64,000 nucleotides of DNA from Escherichia phage vB_EcoM_E9.1, in the sequence record PP886230. One strand, given 5' to 3'. Position 1 is the first letter of the stretch; each line of letters opens with the position of its first letter. Below are positions 4,545 through 64,000 of this stretch, in pieces. The notes under the pieces were generated by a model, which saw only the letters and a list, made by a program, of their open reading frames with translations, did no database searches and was not told where the DNA came from. The position numbers and the translations under genes are program-made.

Positions 4545-5224
4545 TGAAAAAGAAATTAAATGAACAAGGCTTACGTCCGCAAGTTCTCAAAGATTTGATT
4601 CATCCTATCATTAGTGTTGATGAATATACTCCTAAAATTGAAGATAGTAATATTGTTATTATGTTTCAGGTACTTAACAATTTTGATGCAGCATATGATT
4701 TATCTTCTTTTATTGAAAAATCACCTATTGATGTAGCTGATACAGAAGCAGCAGAAACACCAAATTTAGATGGTCGATATCAAGTTTATGTTGAAATGGA
4801 ACGAAATGCCGAATTCCCTGAAAAACTTTTACGTTTAATTAAAACTATTGAAAATATTTGTCCAGACCCAGGTTGGAAAATACAACTATATGGTGTTAAT
4901 GACCCAATCGATGTTGATTTTGAAGAAATACAGCAGAGAATTGATTTGGGTATTCCTAGTTCAATTAGTGAGTTCCTTGATTATGCTGGTGTTTCAGTAA
5001 TCAAAGAAGGAAACATGTTGACATTAAAAACAGCATATGGTAAATTACATTACAGTACTGGAAGCGGTTTTGTTTCAGAAACATATGTGAAAAAGTTATT
5101 AAAGAATGATACACAATTAGACACTTCGCGTCTTAGTTCCATACTAGGGGAAAGCTATACAGTACTACGAAGTGGTGATCAATATGTAATTGGAAGAAAC
5201 GGGAAATATTTGGTGTTGCGATGA
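4544..5224 (+). CDS. hypothetical protein
   Basis: Track ORF; start overlaps upstream stop (coupled). Confidence 0.55.
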   Translation: MKKKLNEQGLRPQVLKDLIHPIISVDEYTPKIEDSNIVIMFQVLNNFDAAYDLSSFIEKSPIDVADTEAAETPNLDGRYQVYVEMERNAEFPEKLLRLIKTIENICPDPGWKIQLYGVNDPIDVDFEEIQQRIDLGIPSSISEFLDYAGVSVIKEGNMLTLKTAYGKLHYSTGSGFVSETYVKKLLKNDTQLDTSRLSSILGESYTVLRSGDQYVIGRNGKYLVLR

Positions 5225-54599: not shown

Positions 54600-54791
54600 A
54601 TGTTGATTTATCAAAGTGATAATATTCGTGTTATGCAGCATCCCTACTTACAAATCTTTGATGTGCAGCAGTATATGGAAGGTGATGACCCAAGAACCTA
54701 TGGTCGTAAGTATGATTACTTCACTGTAAAGCAGTGTAAAAATATTAACGAAGTACGACAATTAGTTCAAGAACTTCAAAACAAAGGTTGA
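54600..54791 (+). CDS. hypothetical small protein
   Basis: Internal ATG of track ORF 54546..54791 behind AAGGA. Confidence 0.4.
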   Translation: MLIYQSDNIRVMQHPYLQIFDVQQYMEGDDPRTYGRKYDYFTVKQCKNINEVRQLVQELQNKG

Positions 54792-54817
54792 CTTCGGTCA
54801 GCCTTTTTTGTTATAAT
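54784..54817 (+). terminator. terminator-promoter cassette, copy 1 of 5
   Basis: AAGGTTGAC-TTCG-GTCAGCCTT hairpin + TTTTTT overlapping stop codon; TTGACT in the stem and TATAAT 18 nt downstream. Confidence 0.6.
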
Positions 54818-55916: not shown

Positions 55917-56210
55917 ATGATCAGTACTTCAGTTAATGAAAGCATCGTCGCTGACGTAGAAATGGTTAAAGAATGTGCAGATGAAACTCTTCGTGATATG
56001 TACATTAATGATTTAATTACTGAATACGGTAGTCGTGGTGTACACGAATTTATTCGTTTAAGTGGAGAGTTGATGAAAAATCGAATTCGTATGAAGCTTA
56101 ACGTACATCCAAAAGCATGGGCATTTACATTAAAATACGCAGAAGATATTGTGAATTTGCGTCGAACTGAAGTATATGAACGTTTGCACAATGGTATGTT
56201 AGATAAATGA
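55917..56210 (+). CDS. hypothetical protein
   Basis: Track ORF. Confidence 0.5.
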   Translation: MISTSVNESIVADVEMVKECADETLRDMYINDLITEYGSRGVHEFIRLSGELMKNRIRMKLNVHPKAWAFTLKYAEDIVNLRRTEVYERLHNGMLDK

Positions 56211-56262
56211 TTGTAAAAAAGGAATTCTTAAATGAATTCCTTTTTGTTTATAAGGTATAGTA

Positions 56263-56484
56263 ATGAAATATATAGTACTTGTACTGATATTATTCAGTAC
56301 TGTTGTAAGTGCTAAACAAAAAGAATATGTTAAATGTATAAATTATGAAGAGAAATATGTTGAAACATATAAAAAAAGTATAATTAAAAACGTTTCGATT
56401 ACTAACAGAGCAACAATCATTGTACTTAAAAATGGGTTAATTATGCTATATAAACCACACGTTAAATGTGAAATTATTAATTGA
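56263..56484 (+). CDS. small secreted protein
   Basis: N-terminal MKYIVLVLILFSTVVSA. Confidence 0.45.
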   Translation: MKYIVLVLILFSTVVSAKQKEYVKCINYEEKYVETYKKSIIKNVSITNRATIIVLKNGLIMLYKPHVKCEIIN

Positions 56485-56491
56485 GGAAATT

Positions 56492-57064
56492 ATGAATCGT
56501 AAAGGTCGTTTTAAAGTATCAAAAAAGAACAAAAGTTCTAGGTTTAAACCTATTGTTTTAACAGTTAAATCTAACAAAGAATTAACTGCACTTAGTAAAA
56601 AGATAATTTCATCTAAGATTGAAGTATCATACGTAAATTCATTAAAATATATGAATGTCAAACCACTGGACCAACTCATTTCACTTATATTTGAACGTAA
56701 TGATTTTGAGATATCAGTAGATGATTATAGAGCCTATAATGCTGGTTTCATTAATGTTACTTGTAATAAAAAACTAACTGAGTTGGAAAATTTGTCATGT
56801 ATAATAAATCTAGATAAAGGTGTTGTGAAGTACCATTTTGTACATTTCACTAATATCAATAATGGAATGGGTGTACAATCCAGACCTATAGTGCCTACGT
56901 GTGATGTTACTAAATTAGCAAAGCTCAATGATGAAGAATATTTTCAAGAAAGCATTGTAACTGAGCATTTAGATGATATAATAGCTACTTACAAAGAATG
57001 CATATGGGTGTTGAATGCTATAAAACCTAAATTGTGTTTAATGAATATTGTTCGTGATTTATGA
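56492..57064 (+). CDS. EE-x-FFQ family protein
   Basis: ...NDEEYFQESIVTEHLDDIIATYKE...; ATG 56492 behind GAGGAAA. Confidence 0.55.
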   Translation: MNRKGRFKVSKKNKSSRFKPIVLTVKSNKELTALSKKIISSKIEVSYVNSLKYMNVKPLDQLISLIFERNDFEISVDDYRAYNAGFINVTCNKKLTELENLSCIINLDKGVVKYHFVHFTNINNGMGVQSRPIVPTCDVTKLAKLNDEEYFQESIVTEHLDDIIATYKECIWVLNAIKPKLCLMNIVRDL

Positions 57065-57077
57065 ATGGGGAATCGTA

Positions 57078-57521
57078 ATGAGTTGGGTAAATGTTAATAG
57101 TATTGAACTTAACGAACAAGATATTTTTGCATTTGTAAATTTAACTAATAACACAGTACTAAAAGGGCGTTTGTTCAGTGCTAGTGATGGGTACAAATGG
57201 ATCTCTTTGATGGATGATAGTGGTGTGATTTATAATGTAATGCAATTACCCCAATGGGTATATAGTAACACTGCTGACGATGTTCTTACCGCAGTTATGC
57301 GTGAGTTTGAAAAACTCCCAGGTGGTGATATCAAAAACAAAGTTTTTAATGCAGAACGTAAAAATTATACAGCACAGCAGTTGGAATCCCTTGCCATTGC
57401 TGCTTATCAAGCTGCTATTAAGAAGCCAGAGTGCGTTATTCTTAAGTATGTACCAGACTTAAAACTTACGTTGGAAGACATGGATGCATTCATTTTTACA
57501 TCTGAACTTGATCAGTACTAA
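57078..57521 (+). CDS. hypothetical protein
   Basis: Track ORF 57048..57521 (TTG); ATG 57078 behind GGGGAA. Confidence 0.5.
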   Translation: MSWVNVNSIELNEQDIFAFVNLTNNTVLKGRLFSASDGYKWISLMDDSGVIYNVMQLPQWVYSNTADDVLTAVMREFEKLPGGDIKNKVFNAERKNYTAQQLESLAIAAYQAAIKKPECVILKYVPDLKLTLEDMDAFIFTSELDQY

Positions 57522-57528
57522 TTTAACT

Positions 57529-57558
57529 TTGGGACAACCATTCTTATTATGATATAAT
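57529..57558 (+). promoter_or_regulatory. promoter, extended -10 with TTGGGA -35-like element
   Basis: TTGGGAC-N17/18-TATGATATAAT; ~80-nt leader with hairpin TGTCATT...AATGACA. Confidence 0.45.
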
Positions 57559-57636
57559 GTTTTATGTCATTCGATATAAATGACAACGGAACTATAAATA
57601 TTATAGTAAAATTTATCTCTTATAGGAGTTATAAAA

Positions 57637-58020
57637 ATGGTTGATAAATGGAATAAGAAAGATCCATCACATGATGTTGATATTTCTGGTCTAGACAATG
57701 CACATAAGCACAAGTATCTAGATTCACTAGGTCTTCTAAAACCAGACCAAAGTCTTGCACATGATCGTCCATCCCGTGAAAAAGCATTTAGCCTAGAATC
57801 ACTAGGTCATGAGCTTAATCGTGTGTTTGAGGATCACCCAATCTATGTACGTGATATTATCGAGAAACTTAAAGTAACTCCTAAAGAGCACTTTAAAGCA
57901 ACTGTACACTCTGCATTCCGTGCATTACATGAATCTCTAAAGAAAACTCACAATCTTCGTAAAATTCATGATGAAATCGTGAATGCAATCGAAAGTGAAA
58001 AACATAAGTTCAAGAAGTAA
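57637..58020 (+). CDS. hypothetical protein (shares SLGLL motif with 58266..59543)
   Basis: Track ORF; RBS TAGGAG; ...HKHKYLDSLGLLKPDQ... Confidence 0.5.
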   Translation: MVDKWNKKDPSHDVDISGLDNAHKHKYLDSLGLLKPDQSLAHDRPSREKAFSLESLGHELNRVFEDHPIYVRDIIEKLKVTPKEHFKATVHSAFRALHESLKKTHNLRKIHDEIVNAIESEKHKFKK

Positions 58021-58025
58021 TAAAA

Positions 58026-58060
58026 AGGGGTTGACTAAGGTCAGCCCTTTGTTGTATCAT
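58026..58060 (+). terminator. terminator-promoter cassette, copy 2 of 5 (variant loop TAAG)
   Basis: GGGTTGAC-TAAG-GTCAGCCC hairpin + TTTGTTG; TTGACT in the stem, TATCAT downstream. Confidence 0.5.
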
Positions 58061-58089
58061 AAATTCTCAATATAACTGAGGTATCATAT

Positions 58090-58203
58090 ATGCAAGGTTT
58101 GAAATTTGTAGTTGCTGCACTCATCGCCGCAGTACTGGTTGGTGGTGTATTCTATGTAGTGGATCAAAAAGTAAATCCACCTGCACAAGAACAATCTAAG
58201 TAA
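58090..58203 (+). CDS. small membrane peptide (37 aa)
   Basis: Below track cutoff; RBS TGAGG; MQGLKFVVAALIAAVLVGGVFYVV... Confidence 0.4.
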   Translation: MQGLKFVVAALIAAVLVGGVFYVVDQKVNPPAQEQSK

Positions 58204-58209
58204 CAAAAT

Positions 58210-58242
58210 AAGGTTGACTTCGGTCAGCCTTTTCTTTATACT
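58210..58242 (+). terminator. terminator-promoter cassette, copy 3 of 5
   Basis: AAGGTTGAC-TTCG-GTCAGCCTT hairpin + TTTCTTT; TTGACT-N17-TATACT. Confidence 0.55.
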
Positions 58243-58265
58243 ATAAATATAGACATAGAGAAAAA

Positions 58266-59543
58266 ATGAAATCTATGGAGAGAAATCAAATGCCAAGTAA
58301 TTTTACTGATAAAAATGGTGGTAACATGGCTGGTCACTCTGATAAATGGAGTGAACGCAACCGCCGTCCAAATAGTTATCAAGCAGGTCAAGGTTCACGT
58401 GGATCACGTAACCAAGGAACTGGTCTAGCTGGTAAAGCAAACGCAGAAGCAGGTGAAGTTAAGAGTACTGAGAACATGACTGAGCTAGAAAAGCTACGTT
58501 ATGTTAATTCATTGGGACTTCTTAATGCTACACAAAAACAACGCCTAGCTGATATGGAACGTGAAGAAAAAGAAAAATCTGCTCCTGCTAAAGAAGAACC
58601 AAAACAAGAAGCACCAAAGGCGGTTAACCCTGTCAAAGAACTGTCGGATAAGTTAGGTAAGATTTTTGCTAATAAACCACAACTTATCCAAGGTATTGTG
58701 AAAGAATTGCAATCTGTACCTAAAGAAGAATTAAAAGTCAAAGCACAAGCTGTGCTTGATGCAATGAGTGGAAATACCAGTACTGAACCAACTGAAGTAT
58801 TCAGTACTATAATGCGTGCACTTGAAGGTACGCAACAAGGTGATGTGCCTGCACAAGAGGAAGTAAGTCTTGAAAGCGTACTTAAAACATTTGATAGTAT
58901 TGGTAAAGAAGACCGTGCTAATGCTCAACAAGTTAAGAATGTACTAGCTAAGTTAGAAAACCGTCTGGAAGGTAAAGACGATAAGATTAAATTAGTATCT
59001 GATGCAGTTAACGATGCACTTAAATCTTATGTACAAGGTGAAAAGAGTCGTTTTGTAACTGCAATGGATGCTGCATTCAATACTATGAAAAAGTATGAAG
59101 CTGATCATGGTGAGAAGGTTACACGAGATGGTTATCTGATGCGTGATGATGAAGAAGGTGCAGTAGAACAGAACGATGTTCATTCAGACGAAGAAATTGA
59201 TGACATGGAAGCTGAACTGTCACAAGACCGCCAAATGACTGAAAAATCCCATAACGAACTACAGAAATTAATGCAATGGGTTGCAGATGTTGGTGAAAAA
59301 GCTGGTGCTGATAAGAAGAGTATAAACCGAAATCTTAGTTGGATTAAAGATAAAGTTGGTAACAACGCTCGTAAACTACAAAAAGCGTGGACTGATGTAG
59401 TGAATGGTGCTGTTGACATTGATGTTGAATCCGGTGAGGCATATGATTATGCATTGACTACACTTGATGACTCTTTCCGTGATTACGAAAATGGAAATGT
59501 AACTCCTTGGGAAAAGGACATCATGAGCAAATACGGTAAATGA
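58266..59543 (+). CDS. hypothetical protein (425 aa), Gly/Ser-rich N-terminus, acidic coiled-coil rest
   Basis: Track ORF; ...LEKLRYVNSLGLLNATQ... paralogous to 57637 motif. Confidence 0.55.
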   Translation: MKSMERNQMPSNFTDKNGGNMAGHSDKWSERNRRPNSYQAGQGSRGSRNQGTGLAGKANAEAGEVKSTENMTELEKLRYVNSLGLLNATQKQRLADMEREEKEKSAPAKEEPKQEAPKAVNPVKELSDKLGKIFANKPQLIQGIVKELQSVPKEELKVKAQAVLDAMSGNTSTEPTEVFSTIMRALEGTQQGDVPAQEEVSLESVLKTFDSIGKEDRANAQQVKNVLAKLENRLEGKDDKIKLVSDAVNDALKSYVQGEKSRFVTAMDAAFNTMKKYEADHGEKVTRDGYLMRDDEEGAVEQNDVHSDEEIDDMEAELSQDRQMTEKSHNELQKLMQWVADVGEKAGADKKSINRNLSWIKDKVGNNARKLQKAWTDVVNGAVDIDVESGEAYDYALTTLDDSFRDYENGNVTPWEKDIMSKYGK

Positions 59544-59551
59544 TAAAACAA

Positions 59552-59584
59552 AAGGTTGACTTCGGTCAGCCTTTTTTTGTAAAT
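59552..59584 (+). terminator. terminator-promoter cassette, copy 4 of 5
   Basis: AAGGTTGAC-TTCG-GTCAGCCTT hairpin + TTTTTTT overlapping stop; TTGACT in stem. Confidence 0.6.
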
Positions 59585-59614
59585 ACAAAAGAGGAATTAA
59601 GAAGAGGGATTACA

Positions 59615-59866
59615 ATGAAAAAATATATTATATTTGGAATTGTATTATTTTCCAGTACTGCTTATGGTGCAGATTATCATTGCTCCGTAGCAAGGCAGGA
59701 TTTCAGAAATGGGGAGTTCTATACTACCTCATACACAAAAGGAATAATACACGACACCGACAGAACTATTGGATTTAATGCGTTTGACAACAAAGATTCA
59801 TATACTTCAGGTATACTATCTGAGCGTAAGACTGATGTAATGGGAATAGAAAAAGAGTTCCGGTGA
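59615..59866 (+). CDS. secreted protein (signal peptide)
   Basis: Internal ATG of track ORF 59540..59866 behind AGAGGGA; MKKYIIFGIVLFSSTAYGA. Confidence 0.5.
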   Translation: MKKYIIFGIVLFSSTAYGADYHCSVARQDFRNGEFYTTSYTKGIIHDTDRTIGFNAFDNKDSYTSGILSERKTDVMGIEKEFR

Positions 59867-59876
59867 TTCAGTAGCA

Positions 59877-60176
59877 ATGTGCAATGGCATTGAAAGTACT
59901 AAAACAATTTATTATAATAATGAACGTAACTATCGTTTTCATAATTTAACCACAAATAAAAGTTTACTATTTTACAATTGTAAAGAAGTAATACTCCCAT
60001 CAGACAATAGCTGTACTCCAACTAATCAACCCCCAGCACAATGTAATACTCCCTCTGAACCTGATAAAAATAAAAAAGACAAAAAACCTTTAAAAGATAA
60101 AAAGAAAGATAAAAAACCTAATCCGTTTAAAAATAATAAACAAGCACAACCCGATATGACGTGTAAAATAAAATAA
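59877..60176 (+). CDS. hypothetical protein with Lys-rich low-complexity tail
   Basis: Track ORF; ...DKNKKDKKPLKDKKKDKKPNPF... Confidence 0.35.
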   Translation: MCNGIESTKTIYYNNERNYRFHNLTTNKSLLFYNCKEVILPSDNSCTPTNQPPAQCNTPSEPDKNKKDKKPLKDKKKDKKPNPFKNNKQAQPDMTCKIK

Positions 60177-60185
60177 GGATATATA

Positions 60186-60605
60186 ATGAAAAAGATTTTT
60201 TTAAGTATTATTTTAGTACTTTTTAGTTTTAATGTATATGCAGCAGATGCTAAACAGGTTGCAAATACAGTAAAAGATGTTATAGTAGATAATGCTCCTA
60301 CATTAGAGGAAATTGGGGTAAAAACTTGTGATATAGTAATATATAATTTAGTTAATGATGAACGAGTTATGTTGAATACGTATGAACAAGTAGTCCCATT
60401 GGTTGAATCTGGTGATGCTTTTAGCTTTACATATAAAGTTAAATTAACAGGAGGGGTTGAAGTTAATCTTGACATTGATACCGCTTCAGTACTAAAAGAT
60501 AAACTAGGATATGTGTTCAATCGTATTCGTGAAGAAGGTCATCTTAAGTATGTTTATGAAAGTAAAATACTAAAACGTGCAATAGTTATAGAAAACTGTA
60601 AATGA
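60186..60605 (+). CDS. secreted protein (signal peptide)
   Basis: N-terminal MKKIFLSIILVLFSFNVYAADA. Confidence 0.5.
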   Translation: MKKIFLSIILVLFSFNVYAADAKQVANTVKDVIVDNAPTLEEIGVKTCDIVIYNLVNDERVMLNTYEQVVPLVESGDAFSFTYKVKLTGGVEVNLDIDTASVLKDKLGYVFNRIREEGHLKYVYESKILKRAIVIENCK

Positions 60606-60611
60606 TAATAA

Positions 60612-60646
60612 AAGGGTTGACTTCGGTCAGCCTTTTTTGTTATGAT
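60612..60646 (+). terminator. terminator-promoter cassette, copy 5 of 5
   Basis: AAGGGTTGAC-TTCG-GTCAGCCTT hairpin + TTTTTT; TTGACT-N18-TATGAT. Confidence 0.6.
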
Positions 60647-60674
60647 GTTGGTATTAACTACAGAGGATAAAGTA

Positions 60675-61316
60675 ATGACTAAGCAAGACATATTCAAAAC
60701 TTTAATTGACATTTTGCGTCCATCAAAAACTCGTTGTGCGATGGAGTTTGATATTCCTTATGCTGAACGCGTAATCTTTCCACAAGTTAAAGCTGCTGGA
60801 CTTACTTTGCTTGGAATGGGGATGTACTCTGTAGTAGTTGAACATAAAAACTATCCTGGGCGTGCATTTAAAGTAACCACTTCACGCTGGGATGGTTTTC
60901 GTGCTTATGCAAAGTACTGCATTGAAAACGCAGGAACCAAGTTTCTTCCAGTGATCTACAGTGCAAACGAACAAGGAAACTTTGGATGGTATGAGATGGA
61001 CAAGTACTATCCTATAATTAAACAAAAAAATAATTATGATGACTTTGTTAGTACTAAAATTGGAGATTTATATTCTTATGCACATGCTGGTCAGTACGCT
61101 ACTTCAGTGAATGATATGCGTGGAAATTCTGAAGAGATTGCTATTGCGACGGTCGCTGCTAACATCATGAAAGAGTTTCACGGGCGTTTTGTACCAGACA
61201 TTCATTCCAGTAATGTCATGATGGATAAAGATGGCAATGTATTCATTACTGATCCTCTTTCGTGTGATGTACGTAGAGAAATACCAGTTACTGAAGAAGA
61301 TCCAGTTTTTTATTGA
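60675..61316 (+). CDS. hypothetical protein, possible protein-kinase-like fold
   Basis: ...FVPDIHSSNVMMDKDGNVFITDPLS... resembles kinase catalytic loop (D-x-H-x2-N) plus metal-binding Asp; ATG 60675 behind AGAGGA. Confidence 0.45.
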   Translation: MTKQDIFKTLIDILRPSKTRCAMEFDIPYAERVIFPQVKAAGLTLLGMGMYSVVVEHKNYPGRAFKVTTSRWDGFRAYAKYCIENAGTKFLPVIYSANEQGNFGWYEMDKYYPIIKQKNNYDDFVSTKIGDLYSYAHAGQYATSVNDMRGNSEEIAIATVAANIMKEFHGRFVPDIHSSNVMMDKDGNVFITDPLSCDVRREIPVTEEDPVFY

Positions 61317-61377
61317 CAGAACTGATGTTCTGGTGTATTCTTAATAAACCATAAAAATTGCGGTAAAGGATAAAATC

Positions 61378-61659
61378 ATGCGTTCATTTGAAAACTTAAT
61401 AGGTAAGCATCTTTTATCTGAAATTGATGCAGACGTTAAAGAATTATCCAAATCAAAAAGTTACATTCATTTGGATGAACTGTTTATTAAGTACGGTGAG
61501 ATTGGTTTTAAGTCATTATTTGTTTTTACTATGAAAGTACATAGTTTAAAGTACTTCGATTTGAGTGCTAAAGATGGTGAACCGAATCTATATTACATGT
61601 ATTACCTTAAGAACAAAGATGAAGCTAATACATTACTCTCTGAATATATATTGGGGTAA
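61378..61659 (+). CDS. hypothetical protein
   Basis: Track ORF; RBS AAAGGA. Confidence 0.5.
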   Translation: MRSFENLIGKHLLSEIDADVKELSKSKSYIHLDELFIKYGEIGFKSLFVFTMKVHSLKYFDLSAKDGEPNLYYMYYLKNKDEANTLLSEYILG

Positions 61660-61661
61660 AA

Positions 61662-62000
61662 ATGGAACAATATTTTGAATTAATAAACAAAGTATCATTT
61701 TATGTAGTATCTTTGGTTTGGGTGTATTATATGTTTTGCTACATTATTGCATTCTTCCGATACACTACTTTATATGAACGTATCTATTATGATGCCCCAA
61801 TTTCATTCTTGATGTTTTGTGCATGTACGTGGGGAATATTAGAAGTACTGATATGTGGGTATAGTACTGATGAATTAAATCTGGTATCGGTCTTGACTGG
61901 GTTTTCATTTGTTGTTATGATAGCTGCCGTTCCAGTATGGTTGTTCTTTGGACTAGTTCATCGCATTGATATATGGCGTTCTAATATCCCTGAAAAGTAA
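61662..62000 (+). CDS. membrane protein, tandem paralog 1 of 3
   Basis: Hydrophobic; C-terminal ...RSNIPEK. Confidence 0.5.
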   Translation: MEQYFELINKVSFYVVSLVWVYYMFCYIIAFFRYTTLYERIYYDAPISFLMFCACTWGILEVLICGYSTDELNLVSVLTGFSFVVMIAAVPVWLFFGLVHRIDIWRSNIPEK

Positions 62001-62009
62001 GGATTGGTA

Positions 62010-62351
62010 ATGATTTATTACACTAACATGTTTGCCTATGCTGTTGCTTGCATTTACATTGTGTACTTCTTATTCGGTGGAGTACTGTGCTTCTTTAAGT
62101 ACAAAACGTTGTTCAACCGAATGTACCCAAATCATCCAATTGTGGTTGTACTTTTGATTCTTTCAGTTTCTCAAATAATAGTTGAAACTACAATGGGTAT
62201 CAGTAGTGTACATTATAGTTTTGGTACTATAGTAATTATTACTATGCTTATTGCATACATTTTAGTACTTGGATATGGTATCTTTGGTAATATTGGTATG
62301 AAAATGTATCATCGAATTAAAACATTACGTGATAATCTACCGGAGCGTTGA
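62010..62351 (+). CDS. membrane protein, tandem paralog 2 of 3
   Basis: ATG 62010 inside track ORF 62004..62351; C-terminal ...RDNLPER. Confidence 0.5.
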   Translation: MIYYTNMFAYAVACIYIVYFLFGGVLCFFKYKTLFNRMYPNHPIVVVLLILSVSQIIVETTMGISSVHYSFGTIVIITMLIAYILVLGYGIFGNIGMKMYHRIKTLRDNLPER

Positions 62352-62352
62352 T

Positions 62353-62697
62353 ATGTATAATTTGAACCTAATCTCATATATTATAACAACACTGTTTACA
62401 TTCTATGCCTTTGTTGGTATAATCCTACTGTACTTTAAATTTTATAAAGTGTTTAACCGTTTCTATCCTTCAATGGAGAATGAGTTTTTCTTTGTGTTGT
62501 ACGTAGGTTACACATTAATGGCTACATGTTTCACTGTAGCCGATGGTGTCATCGGCATTAAAACTGATTCCCCAAATGGTAGTACGCTGGTTGCATTTAT
62601 TCTTACTGGATTCCTTGCAACTTATATTGCCTTCATTACAACATGGTCAGTGGTTGAATTTCTCTTGCGACTACGAAAGAATATGCCGAATCGATAG
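62353..62697 (+). CDS. membrane protein, tandem paralog 3 of 3
   Basis: ATG 62353 inside track ORF 62329..62697; C-terminal ...RKNMPNR. Confidence 0.5.
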   Translation: MYNLNLISYIITTLFTFYAFVGIILLYFKFYKVFNRFYPSMENEFFFVLYVGYTLMATCFTVADGVIGIKTDSPNGSTLVAFILTGFLATYIAFITTWSVVEFLLRLRKNMPNR

Positions 62698-62706
62698 GAG
62701 ACATAT

Positions 62707-62961
62707 ATGTTTGCGTTGCGTAATAAAAACACTAAAGAATTATTATGTATTGATACCGTATGGGATTGTGCGGGGTCAACTACAGTTCTTGAAGAAGGAA
62801 CTGGATATTGCGTGTTTGTTGTACATGATAGGAATGAACTCGAATTATTACTTGCTGAGTTCAATGCTGGTGGTAATCCTAACAGTACTGAATACCCTGA
62901 GATTATCAATCCAGCACCACCAGGCTCTTATGAAATTCTACAACTGTGGGAGTTGAAGTAA
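62707..62961 (+). CDS. hypothetical protein
   Basis: Track ORF; RBS TAGGAGA. Confidence 0.5.
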   Translation: MFALRNKNTKELLCIDTVWDCAGSTTVLEEGTGYCVFVVHDRNELELLLAEFNAGGNPNSTEYPEIINPAPPGSYEILQLWELK

Positions 62962-63341
62962 TGCGTCAAATGCACAAAGTAACCGAGCTAAACAAGCGTC
63001 TGGTTAAACAATCAATGTTCGAGGATAAAGAGTCTTATTATAACTTTAAACGTGCTGTAGAGGCTGCTATCCACATTCAGAAGCTTAAAGAACGTGGTTG
63101 TATTATTCTGGAAAATGGGTCGGAAGTTGTAACGGATGACTTTAGTGTAGCGTTTGATGTTTCACCTGACGGGACGCTATCAATGCCCCGCTTAGGAACT
63201 GGAAACATGACTGTTTGGGTTGGCTTCACTATGGGGAATGTACCTGGTACTGTGTACGTAGATGATGCGGAATTGAAAGACAGTTTCAAAAACTTATCTT
63301 ATCTTGAACCACAATACGCACATGAAATGAATTTATTTTGA
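62961..63341 (+). CDS. hypothetical protein
   Basis: ATG 62961 inside track ORF 62946..63341; TAATG coupling. Confidence 0.5.
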   Translation: MRQMHKVTELNKRLVKQSMFEDKESYYNFKRAVEAAIHIQKLKERGCIILENGSEVVTDDFSVAFDVSPDGTLSMPRLGTGNMTVWVGFTMGNVPGTVYVDDAELKDSFKNLSYLEPQYAHEMNLF

Positions 63342-63342
63342 G

Positions 63343-63370
63343 TTGACAAACACATTCAGTACTGTATAAT
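63343..63370 (+). promoter_or_regulatory. sigma70-like promoter
   Basis: TTGACA-N16-TGTATAAT upstream of CDS 63418. Confidence 0.6.
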
Positions 63371-63417
63371 GCTTATCAAGGGGATGAACTTCTCATCCCT
63401 ACAATCGAGGAACTACC

Positions 63418-63972
63418 ATGATTACTTTTAAGAAAACTGCTAACCACATCCATGAAATCTACATTAACGGTCACAAAGCTGGCCTTCTTCGTTTACTCGC
63501 CCATCATCCTGATGTTACCGTATCTGATAATGAACCTAAAGATTGGCGTGTATTTTTCTTTGGAAAGTACAGTGATTTTCAAGTATCAAACCTGAAGAAC
63601 ATTCGTTCAGTATGCACGTTAACTGAAATTAAAGAAAAGTTAGAAAAAGCATTGAAAACTAATCCAGATGGTGTTCTTCCACCTGATAACTTTGTAGAGA
63701 AAGGTTATGCATTAGCTCATTTCAAAGATGGTACTATTCAATCTATCAGTACTGAATATGAATATCAATGGACTGAGTACTTCACTTATGGATCGCGTAA
63801 TACATTGATGGCTTCACGTAGTAAATTGGAAGAAGTACTGACTCGTATGAATGAACGCGAGCGTCAATTTTATGACAAACCAGAAATGTGGAGTTCAACT
63901 TACATTGACCGTATTGACTATGTTATTATGACTCCAATCTTTGACACTGCTTACTATGATTCTTTGAAATAA
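63418..63972 (+). CDS. hypothetical protein
   Basis: Track ORF; RBS GAGGAA. Confidence 0.55.
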   Translation: MITFKKTANHIHEIYINGHKAGLLRLLAHHPDVTVSDNEPKDWRVFFFGKYSDFQVSNLKNIRSVCTLTEIKEKLEKALKTNPDGVLPPDNFVEKGYALAHFKDGTIQSISTEYEYQWTEYFTYGSRNTLMASRSKLEEVLTRMNERERQFYDKPEMWSSTYIDRIDYVIMTPIFDTAYYDSLK

Positions 63973-63983
63973 GGATAACTTAT

Positions 63984-64000
63984 ATGAAACTACGTACTCG
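63984..64000 (+). CDS. start of next gene (3' end beyond window)
   Basis: ATG behind RBS AAGGA; only 5 codons visible. Confidence 0.3.

What the first reader, a model, noticed from the sequence alone, without database searches (positions are those of the whole stretch)
60675..61316. Possible phage-encoded protein kinase
The C-terminal segment FVPDIHSSNVMMDKDGNVFITDP resembles the catalytic loop plus metal-binding Asp of protein-kinase-like enzymes. It lies behind one of the terminator-promoter cassettes. Tentative.
Basis: inference. Interest (0 to 1): 0.4.

Follow-up and report, generated by a model that had tools for sequence, protein, structure and literature searches.

The report
T7-type protein kinase in jumbo phage
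The gene really does encode a small protein kinase, a stand-alone copy of the kinase domain of phage T7's gp0.7, but near-identical copies in related jumbo coliphages are already annotated and discussed in the literature, so it is a correct call and not a new one.

Summary
The window is an Asteriusvirus jumbo phage: 99.4% DNA identity to Escherichia phage JP4. The protein is 98.6-100% identical to proteins already annotated "protein kinase" in 121Q gp205, PBECO4, phAPEC6 gp031c, G17 and JP4. It belongs to the T7 gp0.7 (T7K) kinase family: PHROG 2828 E=8e-17, profile-profile probability 99.8% (E=2e-29). All catalytic positions are invariant in its own clade: G47-x-G49, K66, D175-x-H177-x-x-N180 and D193-P194. 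An AlphaFold2 model (pLDDT 93) matches only kinases in the PDB, and T7-like phage kinases in BFVD at TM 0.7. It lacks T7K's C-terminal shutoff/DNA-binding domain and ends 20 residues after the DFG-equivalent Asp. It sits behind a hairpin whose 5' arm is the -35 box of a sigma-70-like promoter. The whole unit is missing at the syntenic site in the congeneric phage fEgEco12. Two papers (Sharanji 2025; Bartolec et al., Nature 2026) already name this jumbo-phage kinase. Its activity, substrates and promiscuity remain untested. Verdict: interpretation supported, already known, low interest.

The parts
60610..60638 (+). Intrinsic-terminator-like hairpin: A-run, stem GGGTTGAC / GTCAGCC(T) around a C(UUCG)G tetraloop, then a T-run. 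It lies 5 nt after the stop of the upstream gene (60186-60605).
   Evidence: Exact 22-mer repeated 4 times, plus one copy with 3 mismatches, in 54.7-60.7 kb; 0 expected. RNA fold -17.4 kcal/mol, z=-5.35. The same element is annotated 'terminator' in phage G17.
60617..60646 (+). Sigma-70-like promoter TTGACT-N18-(TG)n-TATGAT. The -35 hexamer is the 5' arm of the hairpin, and the upstream A-run could act as an UP element (inference).
   Evidence: Consensus scan, 10 of 12 matches with a TG extension. Alignment of the five cassettes shows a TATAAT-like box after each T-run. Function not shown; the promoter scan as a whole is not enriched over shuffles.
60663..60666 (+). Shine-Dalgarno GAGG, 8 nt before the ATG.
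   Evidence: Read directly from the sequence.
60675..61316 (+). CDS, 213 aa: T7K-family (gp0.7-like) protein kinase, kinase domain only.
60813..60830 (+). Gly-rich (P-) loop G47-M-G49-M-Y51-S52, between beta1 and beta2.
   Evidence: G47, G49 and Y51 are invariant in 22 homologues. They align with T7K G74-N-G76-H-F-S79. Strands E44-48 and E52-56 in the model.
60870..60872 (+). K66, the beta3 ATP-anchoring lysine (AFK66V).
   Evidence: Invariant. Aligns with T7K K93. Lies in strand E63-68.
61197..61214 (+). Catalytic loop D175-I-H177-S-S-N180.
   Evidence: D175, H177 and N180 are invariant. They align with T7K D195-M-H197-S-G-N200 and, below threshold, with the PAK4 HRD loop.
61251..61262 (+). 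DFG-equivalent D193-P194-L195, followed by S196 (the position of T7K S216).
   Evidence: D193 and P194 are invariant and L195 nearly so. They align with T7K D213-P-V-S216. The DPV motif is described in PMC13645617.
61313..61341 (+). Weak hairpin (61317-61332) nested in a promoter-like TTGACA-N17-TATTCT, directly after the kinase stop codon and ahead of the next gene (61378-61659).
   Evidence: -8.6 kcal/mol, z=-1.8; not significant by itself.

Best explanation
The gene encodes a stand-alone member of the phage T7 gp0.7 (T7K) protein-kinase family, carried by an Asteriusvirus jumbo coliphage. The protein is a minimal kinase. It has an N-terminal three-helix extension, then a canonical five-strand N-lobe with a Gly-rich loop and the beta3 Lys66. 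Its C-lobe is reduced to two helices, the catalytic loop (Asp175 as base, Asn180) and the Mg-binding Asp193 in a DPL motif that replaces DFG. It has no activation segment, no alphaF-alphaI helices and no shutoff/DNA-binding domain. The most likely mechanism (inferred) is this: after infection it is transcribed by host sigma-70 RNA polymerase from its own promoter, binds Mg-ATP, and phosphorylates Ser/Thr (possibly Tyr) residues of host proteins. By analogy with T7K and JSS1_004, this would redirect host functions or weaken defence systems. Without the DNA-binding domain it should lack T7K's bias towards nucleic-acid-bound substrates and T7K's transcription shutoff activity. Shown here: the ORF, family membership, conservation of catalytic residues, the predicted fold, and the promoter/terminator-like context. 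Inferred: catalytic activity, substrates, timing and biological role.
For: Sequence. PHROG 15752 E=4e-91 and PHROG 2828 E=8e-17. tblastn finds 728 phage records, mostly Autographiviridae 'protein kinase' genes at 25-32% identity. BLASTP to T7 gp0.7 gives E=5e-9 with motif-for-motif alignment. hhalign of the jumbo-clade alignment against a T7K alignment gives probability 99.8%, E=2.1e-29, 165 columns. Catalytic residues. G47, G49, K66, D73, E107, D175, H177, N180, D193 and P194 are invariant over 22 homologues down to 40% identity. The D175->N180 (+5) and D175->D193 (+18) spacing is that of PKA D166/N171/D184 (established knowledge). Fold. AF2 pLDDT 93.2, pTM 0.88. Foldseek PDB gives 200 hits at E<=1e-3; the listed ones are APH(3')-IIIa, ROCK1/2, aPKC, MEK1 and CHK1. 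Foldseek BFVD gives a Munch-type orthologue at TM 0.91 and Autographiviridae protein kinases at TMq 0.63-0.74. Family biochemistry. T7K and four Autographiviridae homologues are hyperpromiscuous Ser/Thr/Tyr kinases that disarm defences; jumbo-phage homologues (G17, Munch) are listed as SO-less relatives (PMC13645617). JSS1_004 is a further example (PMC12345140). Context. Own sigma-70-like promoter and RBS. The phAPEC6 orthologue gp031c is not among the 62 virion proteins, which fits an intracellular enzyme made after infection.
Against: [quoted passage not shown] Identity to T7K is only 24-26%. TM-scores to solved kinases are modest (TMq 0.35-0.46), because half of a canonical C-lobe is absent. 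The DPV valine is Leu here. The SO domain, which JSS1_004 needs for full anti-Dnd activity in vivo and which gives T7K its substrate bias, is missing. Early timing is not established: two neighbouring genes behind the same type of cassette encode virion proteins in phAPEC6. The window's proteins show no obvious Ser/Thr/Tyr depletion of the kind reported for T7-like early proteins (17.6% overall), but this test is uncontrolled. The gene is dispensable, being absent at the syntenic site in fEgEco12.
Confidence: 0.85

Rival explanations
1. It is an active T7K-family protein kinase but not a promiscuous one. Having lost the DNA-binding SO domain, it phosphorylates one or a few specific host or phage targets, as in the classical picture of gp0.7 acting on RNA polymerase, RNase III and RNase E, and so acts as a regulator and not as a broad anti-defence weapon.
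For: The SO domain that drives high-stoichiometry phosphorylation of nucleic-acid-binding proteins is absent. The Val of DPV, proposed to help lock T7K in an active state, is Leu. The clade has a conserved N-terminal helical extension and a conserved acidic C-terminal tail (REIPVTEEDP) that could be docking elements. There is no obvious S/T/Y depletion in neighbouring proteins. P1 Doc shows that phage kinases can be narrow.
Against: There is no activation segment or substrate-binding C-lobe that would confer specificity. Every T7K homologue assayed so far is hyperpromiscuous. The S/T/Y test is uncontrolled for the 33% G+C content of the genome.
Confidence: 0.3
2. It is a small-molecule kinase of the protein-kinase-like superfamily (aminoglycoside, choline or sugar phosphotransferase-like) and not a protein kinase.
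For: The best PDB Foldseek hit is APH(3')-IIIa (E=1.5e-5). The C-lobe lacks the activation segment and the APE/alphaF elements typical of protein kinases.
Against: E-values for APH and for ROCK, aPKC and MEK are essentially equal. Homology to the T7K family, whose members are experimentally protein kinases, is far stronger. The helical substrate-binding subdomain of APH/ChoK enzymes is absent: only 20 residues follow D193.
Confidence: 0.04
3. It is a catalytically dead pseudokinase or ATP-binding scaffold retained for a non-enzymatic role.
For: The C-lobe is very truncated. The gene is dispensable within the genus. No activity data exist for the clade.
Against: All residues needed for catalysis (Gly loop, K66, D175, N180, D193) are invariant across 22 sequences down to 40% identity, the signature of purifying selection on an active site. 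T7K has the same truncated architecture and is highly active.
Confidence: 0.05

Closest known systems
Orthologues in Asteriusvirus jumbo coliphages: 121Q gp205, PBECO4, phAPEC6 gp031c, G17 G17_00108 (QBO61604.1), Sharanji gp144 (WNN14432.1), JP4
   Same: 98.6-100% amino-acid identity, same 213-aa length, and same genomic position behind the same terminator/promoter cassette. Annotated 'protein kinase' (PHA00451; K11 gp0.7-like). Sharanji gp144 is discussed as a T7 kinase homologue and G17 is named as a jumbophage T7K homologue.
   Different: Essentially nothing; this is the same gene. Some records (the SD-x Salmonella phages, SP27, slurp01, Sharanji) still label it 'hypothetical protein'.
Phage T7 gp0.7 protein kinase (T7K, UniProt P00513), kinase domain
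   Same: Same family: hhalign 99.8%, E=2e-29. Same Gly loop, beta3 Lys, D-x-H-x-x-N catalytic loop and DP[V/L]S motif, with Ser at the T7K S216 autophosphorylation position. Similar predicted fold: TM about 0.7 to Autographiviridae kinases. Same minimal C-lobe that ends shortly after the DFG-equivalent.
   Different: 24-26% identity. No C-terminal shutoff/DNA-binding domain (213 aa against 359 aa). DPL instead of DPV. A different N-terminal extension that does not align. Host genome is a roughly 350-kb myovirus, not a 40-kb podovirus. Activity untested.
JSS1_004 of Salmonella phage JSS1 (T7-like), an anti-DndFGH/multi-defence kinase
   Same: Same T7K family by inference: it shows 54% similarity to gp0.7 and has an N-terminal Ser/Thr/Tyr kinase domain.
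   Different: JSS1_004 has the SO domain and needs both domains for full anti-Dnd activity in vivo; the protein here has only the kinase part.
Munch-type jumbo-phage kinases (Salmonella phages Munch gp521, SE_PL gp448, 7t3; Klebsiella fENko-Kae01; Erwinia Hallingskeid)
   Same: Same SO-less 211-236-aa architecture and same invariant catalytic residues; 45-62% identity; BFVD model TM 0.91.
   Different: The residue after DPL is Ala or Gly instead of Ser. In Munch the gene sits inside an operon without its own cassette. The Hallingskeid-type members carry an insertion of about 20 residues before helix alphaE.
Eukaryotic-like protein kinases and aminoglycoside phosphotransferases (protein-kinase-like superfamily)
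   Same: Bilobal ATP-grasp-like kinase fold and the same catalytic constellation, G-loop / Lys / Asp...Asn / Asp.
   Different: No significant sequence match to any PDB chain or to the Pfam kinase models. No activation segment, APE motif or alphaF-alphaI helices. His replaces the HRD-loop Lys, and DPL replaces DFG.

Membership tests
T7K / gp0.7 protein-kinase family (PHROG 2828; CDD PHA00451) | [quoted passage not shown] | tested here: met
   PHROG 2828 E=7.8e-17. BLASTP to T7 gp0.7 E=5e-9 over residues 41-210. hhalign probability 99.8%, E=2.1e-29.
T7K / gp0.7 protein-kinase family (PHROG 2828; CDD PHA00451) | Gly-rich loop and beta3 lysine (T7K G74/G76, K93) | tested here: met
   G47, G49 and K66 are invariant and aligned to the T7K positions.
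T7K / gp0.7 protein-kinase family (PHROG 2828; CDD PHA00451) | Catalytic loop D-x-H-x-x-N (T7K D195/H197/N200) | tested here: met
   D175, H177 and N180 are invariant in 22 homologues and aligned to T7K.
T7K / gp0.7 protein-kinase family (PHROG 2828; CDD PHA00451) | DPV motif in place of DFG (T7K 213-215), followed by Ser216 | tested here: met
   D193-P194-L195-S196. Asp and Pro are invariant and Val is replaced by Leu, as Bartolec et al. report for jumbophage variants.
T7K / gp0.7 protein-kinase family (PHROG 2828; CDD PHA00451) | C-terminal shutoff (SO) DNA-binding domain (full-length T7K architecture) | tested here: not met
   The protein ends at residue 213, 20 residues after D193, and nothing aligns to T7K 232-359. 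It is a member of the kinase-domain family but not of the two-domain gp0.7 architecture.
T7K / gp0.7 protein-kinase family (PHROG 2828; CDD PHA00451) | Ser/Thr/Tyr protein-kinase activity, hyperpromiscuous | not testable with these tools
   Needs biochemistry or phosphoproteomics. Reported as unknown for jumbophage homologues.
T7K / gp0.7 protein-kinase family (PHROG 2828; CDD PHA00451) | Early expression by host RNA polymerase | tested here: inconclusive
   A sigma-70-like promoter with a TG extension lies at 60617-60646. However, promoter-like hits in the region are not enriched over shuffles, and the same cassette precedes virion-protein genes.
Protein-kinase-like fold superfamily (ePK / APH) | Bilobal kinase fold with a nucleotide pocket | tested here: met
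   AF2 pLDDT 93.2. Foldseek PDB gives 200 hits at E<=1e-3; the 50 listed are all kinases, at probability 1.00. This rests on a predicted structure only.
Canonical eukaryotic-type protein kinase domain (Pfam Pkinase) | Match to the Pkinase/PK_Tyr models; activation segment with APE; alphaF-alphaI C-lobe | tested here: not met
   No Pfam hit at E<=10. T7 gp0.7 itself also has no hit in this Pfam copy. PDB sequence matches to PAK4 and GRK2 reach only E about 1. Only one short strand follows D193.
Pfam PF27024 | Family hit | not testable with these tools
   All 28 close homologues carry a precomputed PF27024.1 hit, but the local Pfam copy does not report this family, so its name and definition could not be read.

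The most novel reading that the evidence does not exclude
The kinase-only, SO-less T7K homologue could be a self-contained 'moron': its own promoter plus one gene, 772 nt in all. It is present in most Asteriusvirus phages but missing at the syntenic site in the fEgEco12 lineage. On this reading it is a constitutively active, hyperpromiscuous kinase that serves as a broad anti-defence factor for a non-nucleus-forming jumbo phage and contributes to host-range differences within the genus. That would show that T7K-type mass phosphorylation works without DNA tethering and outside the Autographiviridae.
Probability: 0.35. Interest if true: 0.5.

Novelty: already known. Interest (0 to 1): 0.2.

Why it matters
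T7-type kinases have recently been shown to be hyperpromiscuous enzymes that phosphorylate most of the host proteome and disarm several defence systems. The jumbo-phage copies consist of the kinase domain alone, and their activity is an explicitly open question. This window adds no new gene to that picture. It does confirm the annotation with a confident model and complete conservation of the active site. It also points to a natural presence/absence comparison within one genus (PBECO4-like phages against fEgEco12-like phages) that could be used to test what the kinase does. For genome annotation, several deposited records (the SD-x Salmonella phages, SP27, slurp01, Sharanji) still call it 'hypothetical protein' and could be corrected.

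Tried and rejected
1. The Pfam scan gave no hit. This is uninformative, because T7 gp0.7 itself gives none in this Pfam copy.

2. The NCBIfam scan gave only noise: SurA, E=0.04, far below the cutoff.

3. Sequence searches of the PDB, with the single sequence and with the profile, gave only sub-threshold kinase hits and a spurious spectrin hit. No T7K-family structure has been solved.

4. A second word-indexed homologue search with the alignment added only one sequence. The exhaustive HMM search was needed to see the wider family: 1479 clusters at E<=1e-3.

5. The longer ORF from ATG 60642 (224 aa, as called in some assemblies) was rejected. That ATG lies in the -10 box after the terminator T-run and has no RBS.

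6. I looked for Ser/Thr/Tyr depletion as a proxy for kinase promiscuity. The content is 17.6% over 131 crude + strand ORFs, 16.5% in the 54-64 kb stretch, and 17.4% in the kinase itself. There is no obvious depletion, but the test is not controlled for the 33% G+C content, so it is inconclusive.

7. The idea that the kinase is a virion-packaged (injected) protein was rejected. The phAPEC6 orthologue gp031c is absent from the 62-protein virion proteome, although its neighbours gp035c and gp037c are present.

8. The MAFFT placement of part of the fEgEco12 sequence against 61334-61345 was judged spurious. tblastn shows that those bases encode the C-terminus of the upstream gene's homologue.

Full report
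**1. The observation**

The ORF is real. It runs from ATG 60675 to TGA 61314-61316 on the + strand and encodes 213 aa.

A longer reading from ATG 60642 (224 aa) appears in the ORF list and in some assembly gene calls. That ATG sits inside the -10 hexamer directly after a terminator T-run and has no ribosome-binding site. GAGG at 60663-60666 lies 8 nt before the 60675 ATG, and homologues and GenBank annotations are 213 aa. I take 60675 as the start.

**2. Where the window comes from**

The 8 kb around the gene is 99.4% identical to Escherichia phage JP4. It is 96-99% identical to phAPEC6, SP27, G17, PBECO4, 121Q and Sharanji, all jumbo myoviruses of 320-373 kb in the genus Asteriusvirus.

The protein is 100% identical to JP4, BAU.Micro_ELP-22 and three SD-x Salmonella phages. 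It is 99.1% identical to 121Q gp205 and PBECO4, and 98.6% identical to G17 and Sharanji. Many of these records already annotate it as a protein kinase:
- G17: "conserved domain PHA00451 protein kinase".
- phAPEC6 gp031c: "Klebsiella phage K11 gp0.7; PKc_like".

Others still say "hypothetical protein".

**3. What the protein is**

- **Family searches.** PHROGs gives phrog_15752 at E=4e-91 (annotated with T7 gp0.7-type functions) and phrog_2828, the T7K family, at E=8e-17.
- **Phage records.** tblastn finds 728 phage records. About 29 are jumbo phages at 45-100% identity. The rest are mostly Autographiviridae "protein kinase" genes at 25-32% identity.
- **Direct comparison with T7 gp0.7.** BLASTP gives E=5e-9 with motif-for-motif correspondence: LGMGMYS/LGNGHFS, AFKV/VIKV, DIHSSN/DMHSGN, ITDPLS/ITDPVS.
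- **Profile comparison.** An alignment of 22 jumbo-clade sequences against 20 T7K-type sequences gives probability 99.8%, E=2.1e-29, over 165 columns.
- **Conservation.** Within the jumbo clade, down to 40% identity, these positions are invariant: G47, G49, Y51, K66, D73, E107, D175, H177, N180, D193 and P194. The D175->N180 (+5) and D175->D193 (+18) spacing equals that of PKA D166/N171/D184 (established knowledge).
- **Negative results that do not count against this.** Pfam and NCBIfam gave nothing, but T7 gp0.7 itself has no hit in this Pfam copy. Homologues carry a precomputed PF27024 hit that I could not read.

**4. Predicted structure**

AlphaFold2 on the 22-sequence alignment gives pLDDT 93.2 and pTM 0.88. 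The order of secondary-structure elements is:
- three N-terminal helices (residues 3-40);
- beta1 to beta3 (44-48, 52-56, 63-68);
- a helix at 75-84 in the alphaC position;
- beta4 and beta5 (94-100, 103-109);
- two helices (127-141, 152-168);
- four short strands that bracket the catalytic loop and the DPL motif;
- then the chain ends.

Foldseek against the PDB gives 200 matches at E<=1e-3. The 50 listed are all kinases: APH(3')-IIIa at 1.5e-5, then ROCK1/2, aPKC, MEK1 and CHK1, with TMq 0.35-0.46. Against BFVD, the best match is a Munch-type orthologue (TM 0.91), followed by Autographiviridae protein kinases (TMq 0.63-0.74).

So the fold is kinase-like but minimal. Only 20 residues follow the DFG-equivalent Asp, so there is no activation segment, no APE motif and no alphaF-alphaI helices. 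T7K shares this truncation and is nevertheless highly active. D73 aligns with the invariant T7K D100, just before the alphaC-like helix. It is the likely partner of K66, but this is inference because I could not inspect model coordinates.

**5. How it differs from T7 gp0.7**

- The protein stops where T7K's linker to the shutoff (SO) DNA-binding domain begins. Nothing aligns to T7K 232-359.
- The motif is DPL instead of DPV, as Bartolec et al. report for jumbo-phage variants.
- Ser196, at the position of T7K's inhibitory autophosphorylation site S216, is kept here and in G17. It is Ala in Munch, SE_PL and Hallingskeid, and Gly or Ala in most metagenomic relatives. This does not fit the paper's statement that the Ser is conserved in all variants.

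**6. Genomic context**

The gene lies 5 nt downstream of a hairpin at 60610-60638, which consists of an A-run, the stem GGGTTGAC/GTCAGCC(T) around a C(UUCG)G tetraloop, and a T-run. The hairpin folds at -17.4 kcal/mol, z=-5.35. The 22-mer core occurs five times between 54.7 and 60.7 kb, against 0 expected.

The 5' arm of the stem is a TTGACT -35 box. A TG-extended TATGAT -10 box follows the T-run (60617-60646). G17 annotates the same element as a terminator.

Whether this makes the kinase an early gene is open. Two other genes behind such cassettes (57637-58020 and 58266-59543) are orthologues of phAPEC6 gp037c and gp035c, which are virion proteins by mass spectrometry. The kinase orthologue gp031c is not in the virion list.

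After the kinase stop codon there is a weak hairpin nested in a TTGACA-N17-TATTCT promoter-like site.

The whole 772-nt unit (cassette plus kinase, 60606-61377) is absent from the congeneric phage fEgEco12. There the homologues of the flanking genes, g558 and g559, are 11 nt apart. WPEC3 and WPEC5 look the same by coverage and annotation, and none of the three appears among the close protein hits.

More distant jumbo phages (Munch, SE_PL, fENko-Kae01, EJP2, Hallingskeid) do have the kinase. In Munch it sits inside an operon in a partly rearranged neighbourhood. The gene is therefore old in this phage group but dispensable.

**7. Most likely mechanism**

The protein is probably an active Mg-ATP-dependent protein kinase of the T7K family. 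It would be made inside the infected cell and would phosphorylate host proteins, and perhaps phage proteins, on Ser/Thr and possibly Tyr.

By analogy with T7K, Bas64-68 and JSS1_004, the purpose would be host takeover and weakening of defence systems. Without the SO domain it should neither shut off transcription nor be concentrated on DNA-bound substrates.

Family membership, fold and active-site conservation are shown here. Activity, substrates, promiscuity and timing are inferred.

Rivals:
- A narrow-specificity regulator within the same family: plausible, about 0.3.
- A small-molecule kinase: unlikely. APH is the top PDB hit, but its score is no better than those of the protein kinases, and the APH substrate-binding subdomain is missing.
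- A pseudokinase: unlikely, given the invariant catalytic residues.

A crude look for Ser/Thr/Tyr depletion in the window's proteins, the signature reported for T7-like early proteins, found none: 17.6% overall and 16.5% in the 54-64 kb stretch. The test is not controlled for the 33% G+C content of the genome.

**8. Comparison with what is known, and novelty**

This is the same gene as 121Q gp205, PBECO4, phAPEC6 gp031c, the G17 putative protein kinase and Sharanji gp144.

The Sharanji paper calls WNN14432.1 a homologue of the T7 protein kinase and suggests an anti-defence role. Bartolec et al. (Nature 2026) list jumbo-phage T7K homologues from G17 and Munch. [quoted passage not shown]

The finding is therefore correct but already known.
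- a confident model;
- explicit mapping of the catalytic residues;
- the promoter-in-hairpin architecture;
- the presence/absence polymorphism within the genus;
- the non-conservation of the S216-equivalent Ser.

**9. Verdict**

- Observation: confirmed.
- Novelty: already known.
- Interest: 0.2.
- Most novel reading not excluded: a stand-alone, hyperpromiscuous anti-defence kinase "moron" that shapes host range in Asteriusvirus (probability about 0.35, interest if true about 0.5).

Noticed in passing
window 54786-54807, 58029-58050, 58212-58233, 59554-59575, 60615-60636 (+): A compact dual-purpose element is repeated five times in 6 kb: A-run, GGTTGAC-TTCG-GTCAGCC hairpin with a C(UUCG)G tetraloop, T-run, then a TATAAT-like box. 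The 5' arm of the stem is itself a TTGACT -35 hexamer, so terminator and promoter share sequence. Some of these elements precede genes whose phAPEC6 orthologues are virion proteins, so their timing class is unclear.
   Followed up: partly
window 60606-61377 against L005 (fEgEco12 PP777464) 5053-5065: The whole kinase unit (cassette plus ORF, 772 nt) is absent at the syntenic site in the congeneric phage fEgEco12, where the flanking gene homologues g558 and g559 are 11 nt apart. WPEC3 and WPEC5 appear the same. This is a natural presence/absence polymorphism within Asteriusvirus.
   Followed up: partly
window 61662-62000, 62004-62351, 62353-62697 (+): Three tandem paralogous hydrophobic proteins of about 113 aa lie just downstream of the kinase. 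Each ends in a similar basic tail (..RSNIPEK..RDNLPER..RKNMPNR). Cross-matches run at 23-33% identity, and the genes are conserved in G17 and fEgEco12. Function unknown.
   Followed up: no
window 59612-59866 and 60186-60605 (+): Small proteins with signal-peptide-like N-termini (MKKYIIFGIVLFSSTAYG.., MKKIFLSIILVLFSFNVYA..) lie directly upstream of the kinase. The fEgEco12 homologue of the first is annotated 'lytic conversion lipoprotein'. The second is only 41% identical between the two phages, while its neighbours are 80-98% identical.
   Followed up: no
window 57637-58020 and 58266-59543 (+): These are orthologues of phAPEC6 gp037c and gp035c, both detected in the virion by mass spectrometry. 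The 425-aa protein has a low-complexity Gly/Ser/Asn/Gln-rich N-terminus, is annotated variously as 'virion structural protein' or 'chromosome segregation protein', and varies in length between phages (1254-1521 nt).
   Followed up: partly
residue 196 of the kinase (window 61260-61262); L006 Munch, L002 SE_PL, L007 Hallingskeid: The Ser that follows the DP[V/L] motif (T7K S216, the reported inhibitory autophosphorylation site) is Ser here and in G17. It is Ala in Munch, SE_PL and Hallingskeid, and Gly or Ala in most metagenomic jumbo-clade homologues. This is at odds with the statement in PMC13645617 that it is conserved in all variants.
   Followed up: yes
proteins P0036, P0037, P0039, P0040, P0053, P0055, P0080: The exhaustive profile search found proteins of 776-1343 aa with several separate stretches matching the T7K-like kinase profile (up to 9 stretches in P0036). 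They have no credible Pfam domain: one protein gave only sub-cutoff hits and the others none. These could be multi-domain or repeated kinase-like architectures of unknown origin.
   Followed up: no
L001 (Salmonella phage SD-6_S16) and relatives against window 56000-64000: The four SD-x Salmonella phage records are 310-326 kb long and cover only 86-88% of this 8-kb stretch, in 2-4 pieces. Their gene calls upstream of the kinase differ: short ORFs, some on the opposite strand. This suggests deletions or assembly and annotation problems in those records.
   Followed up: no
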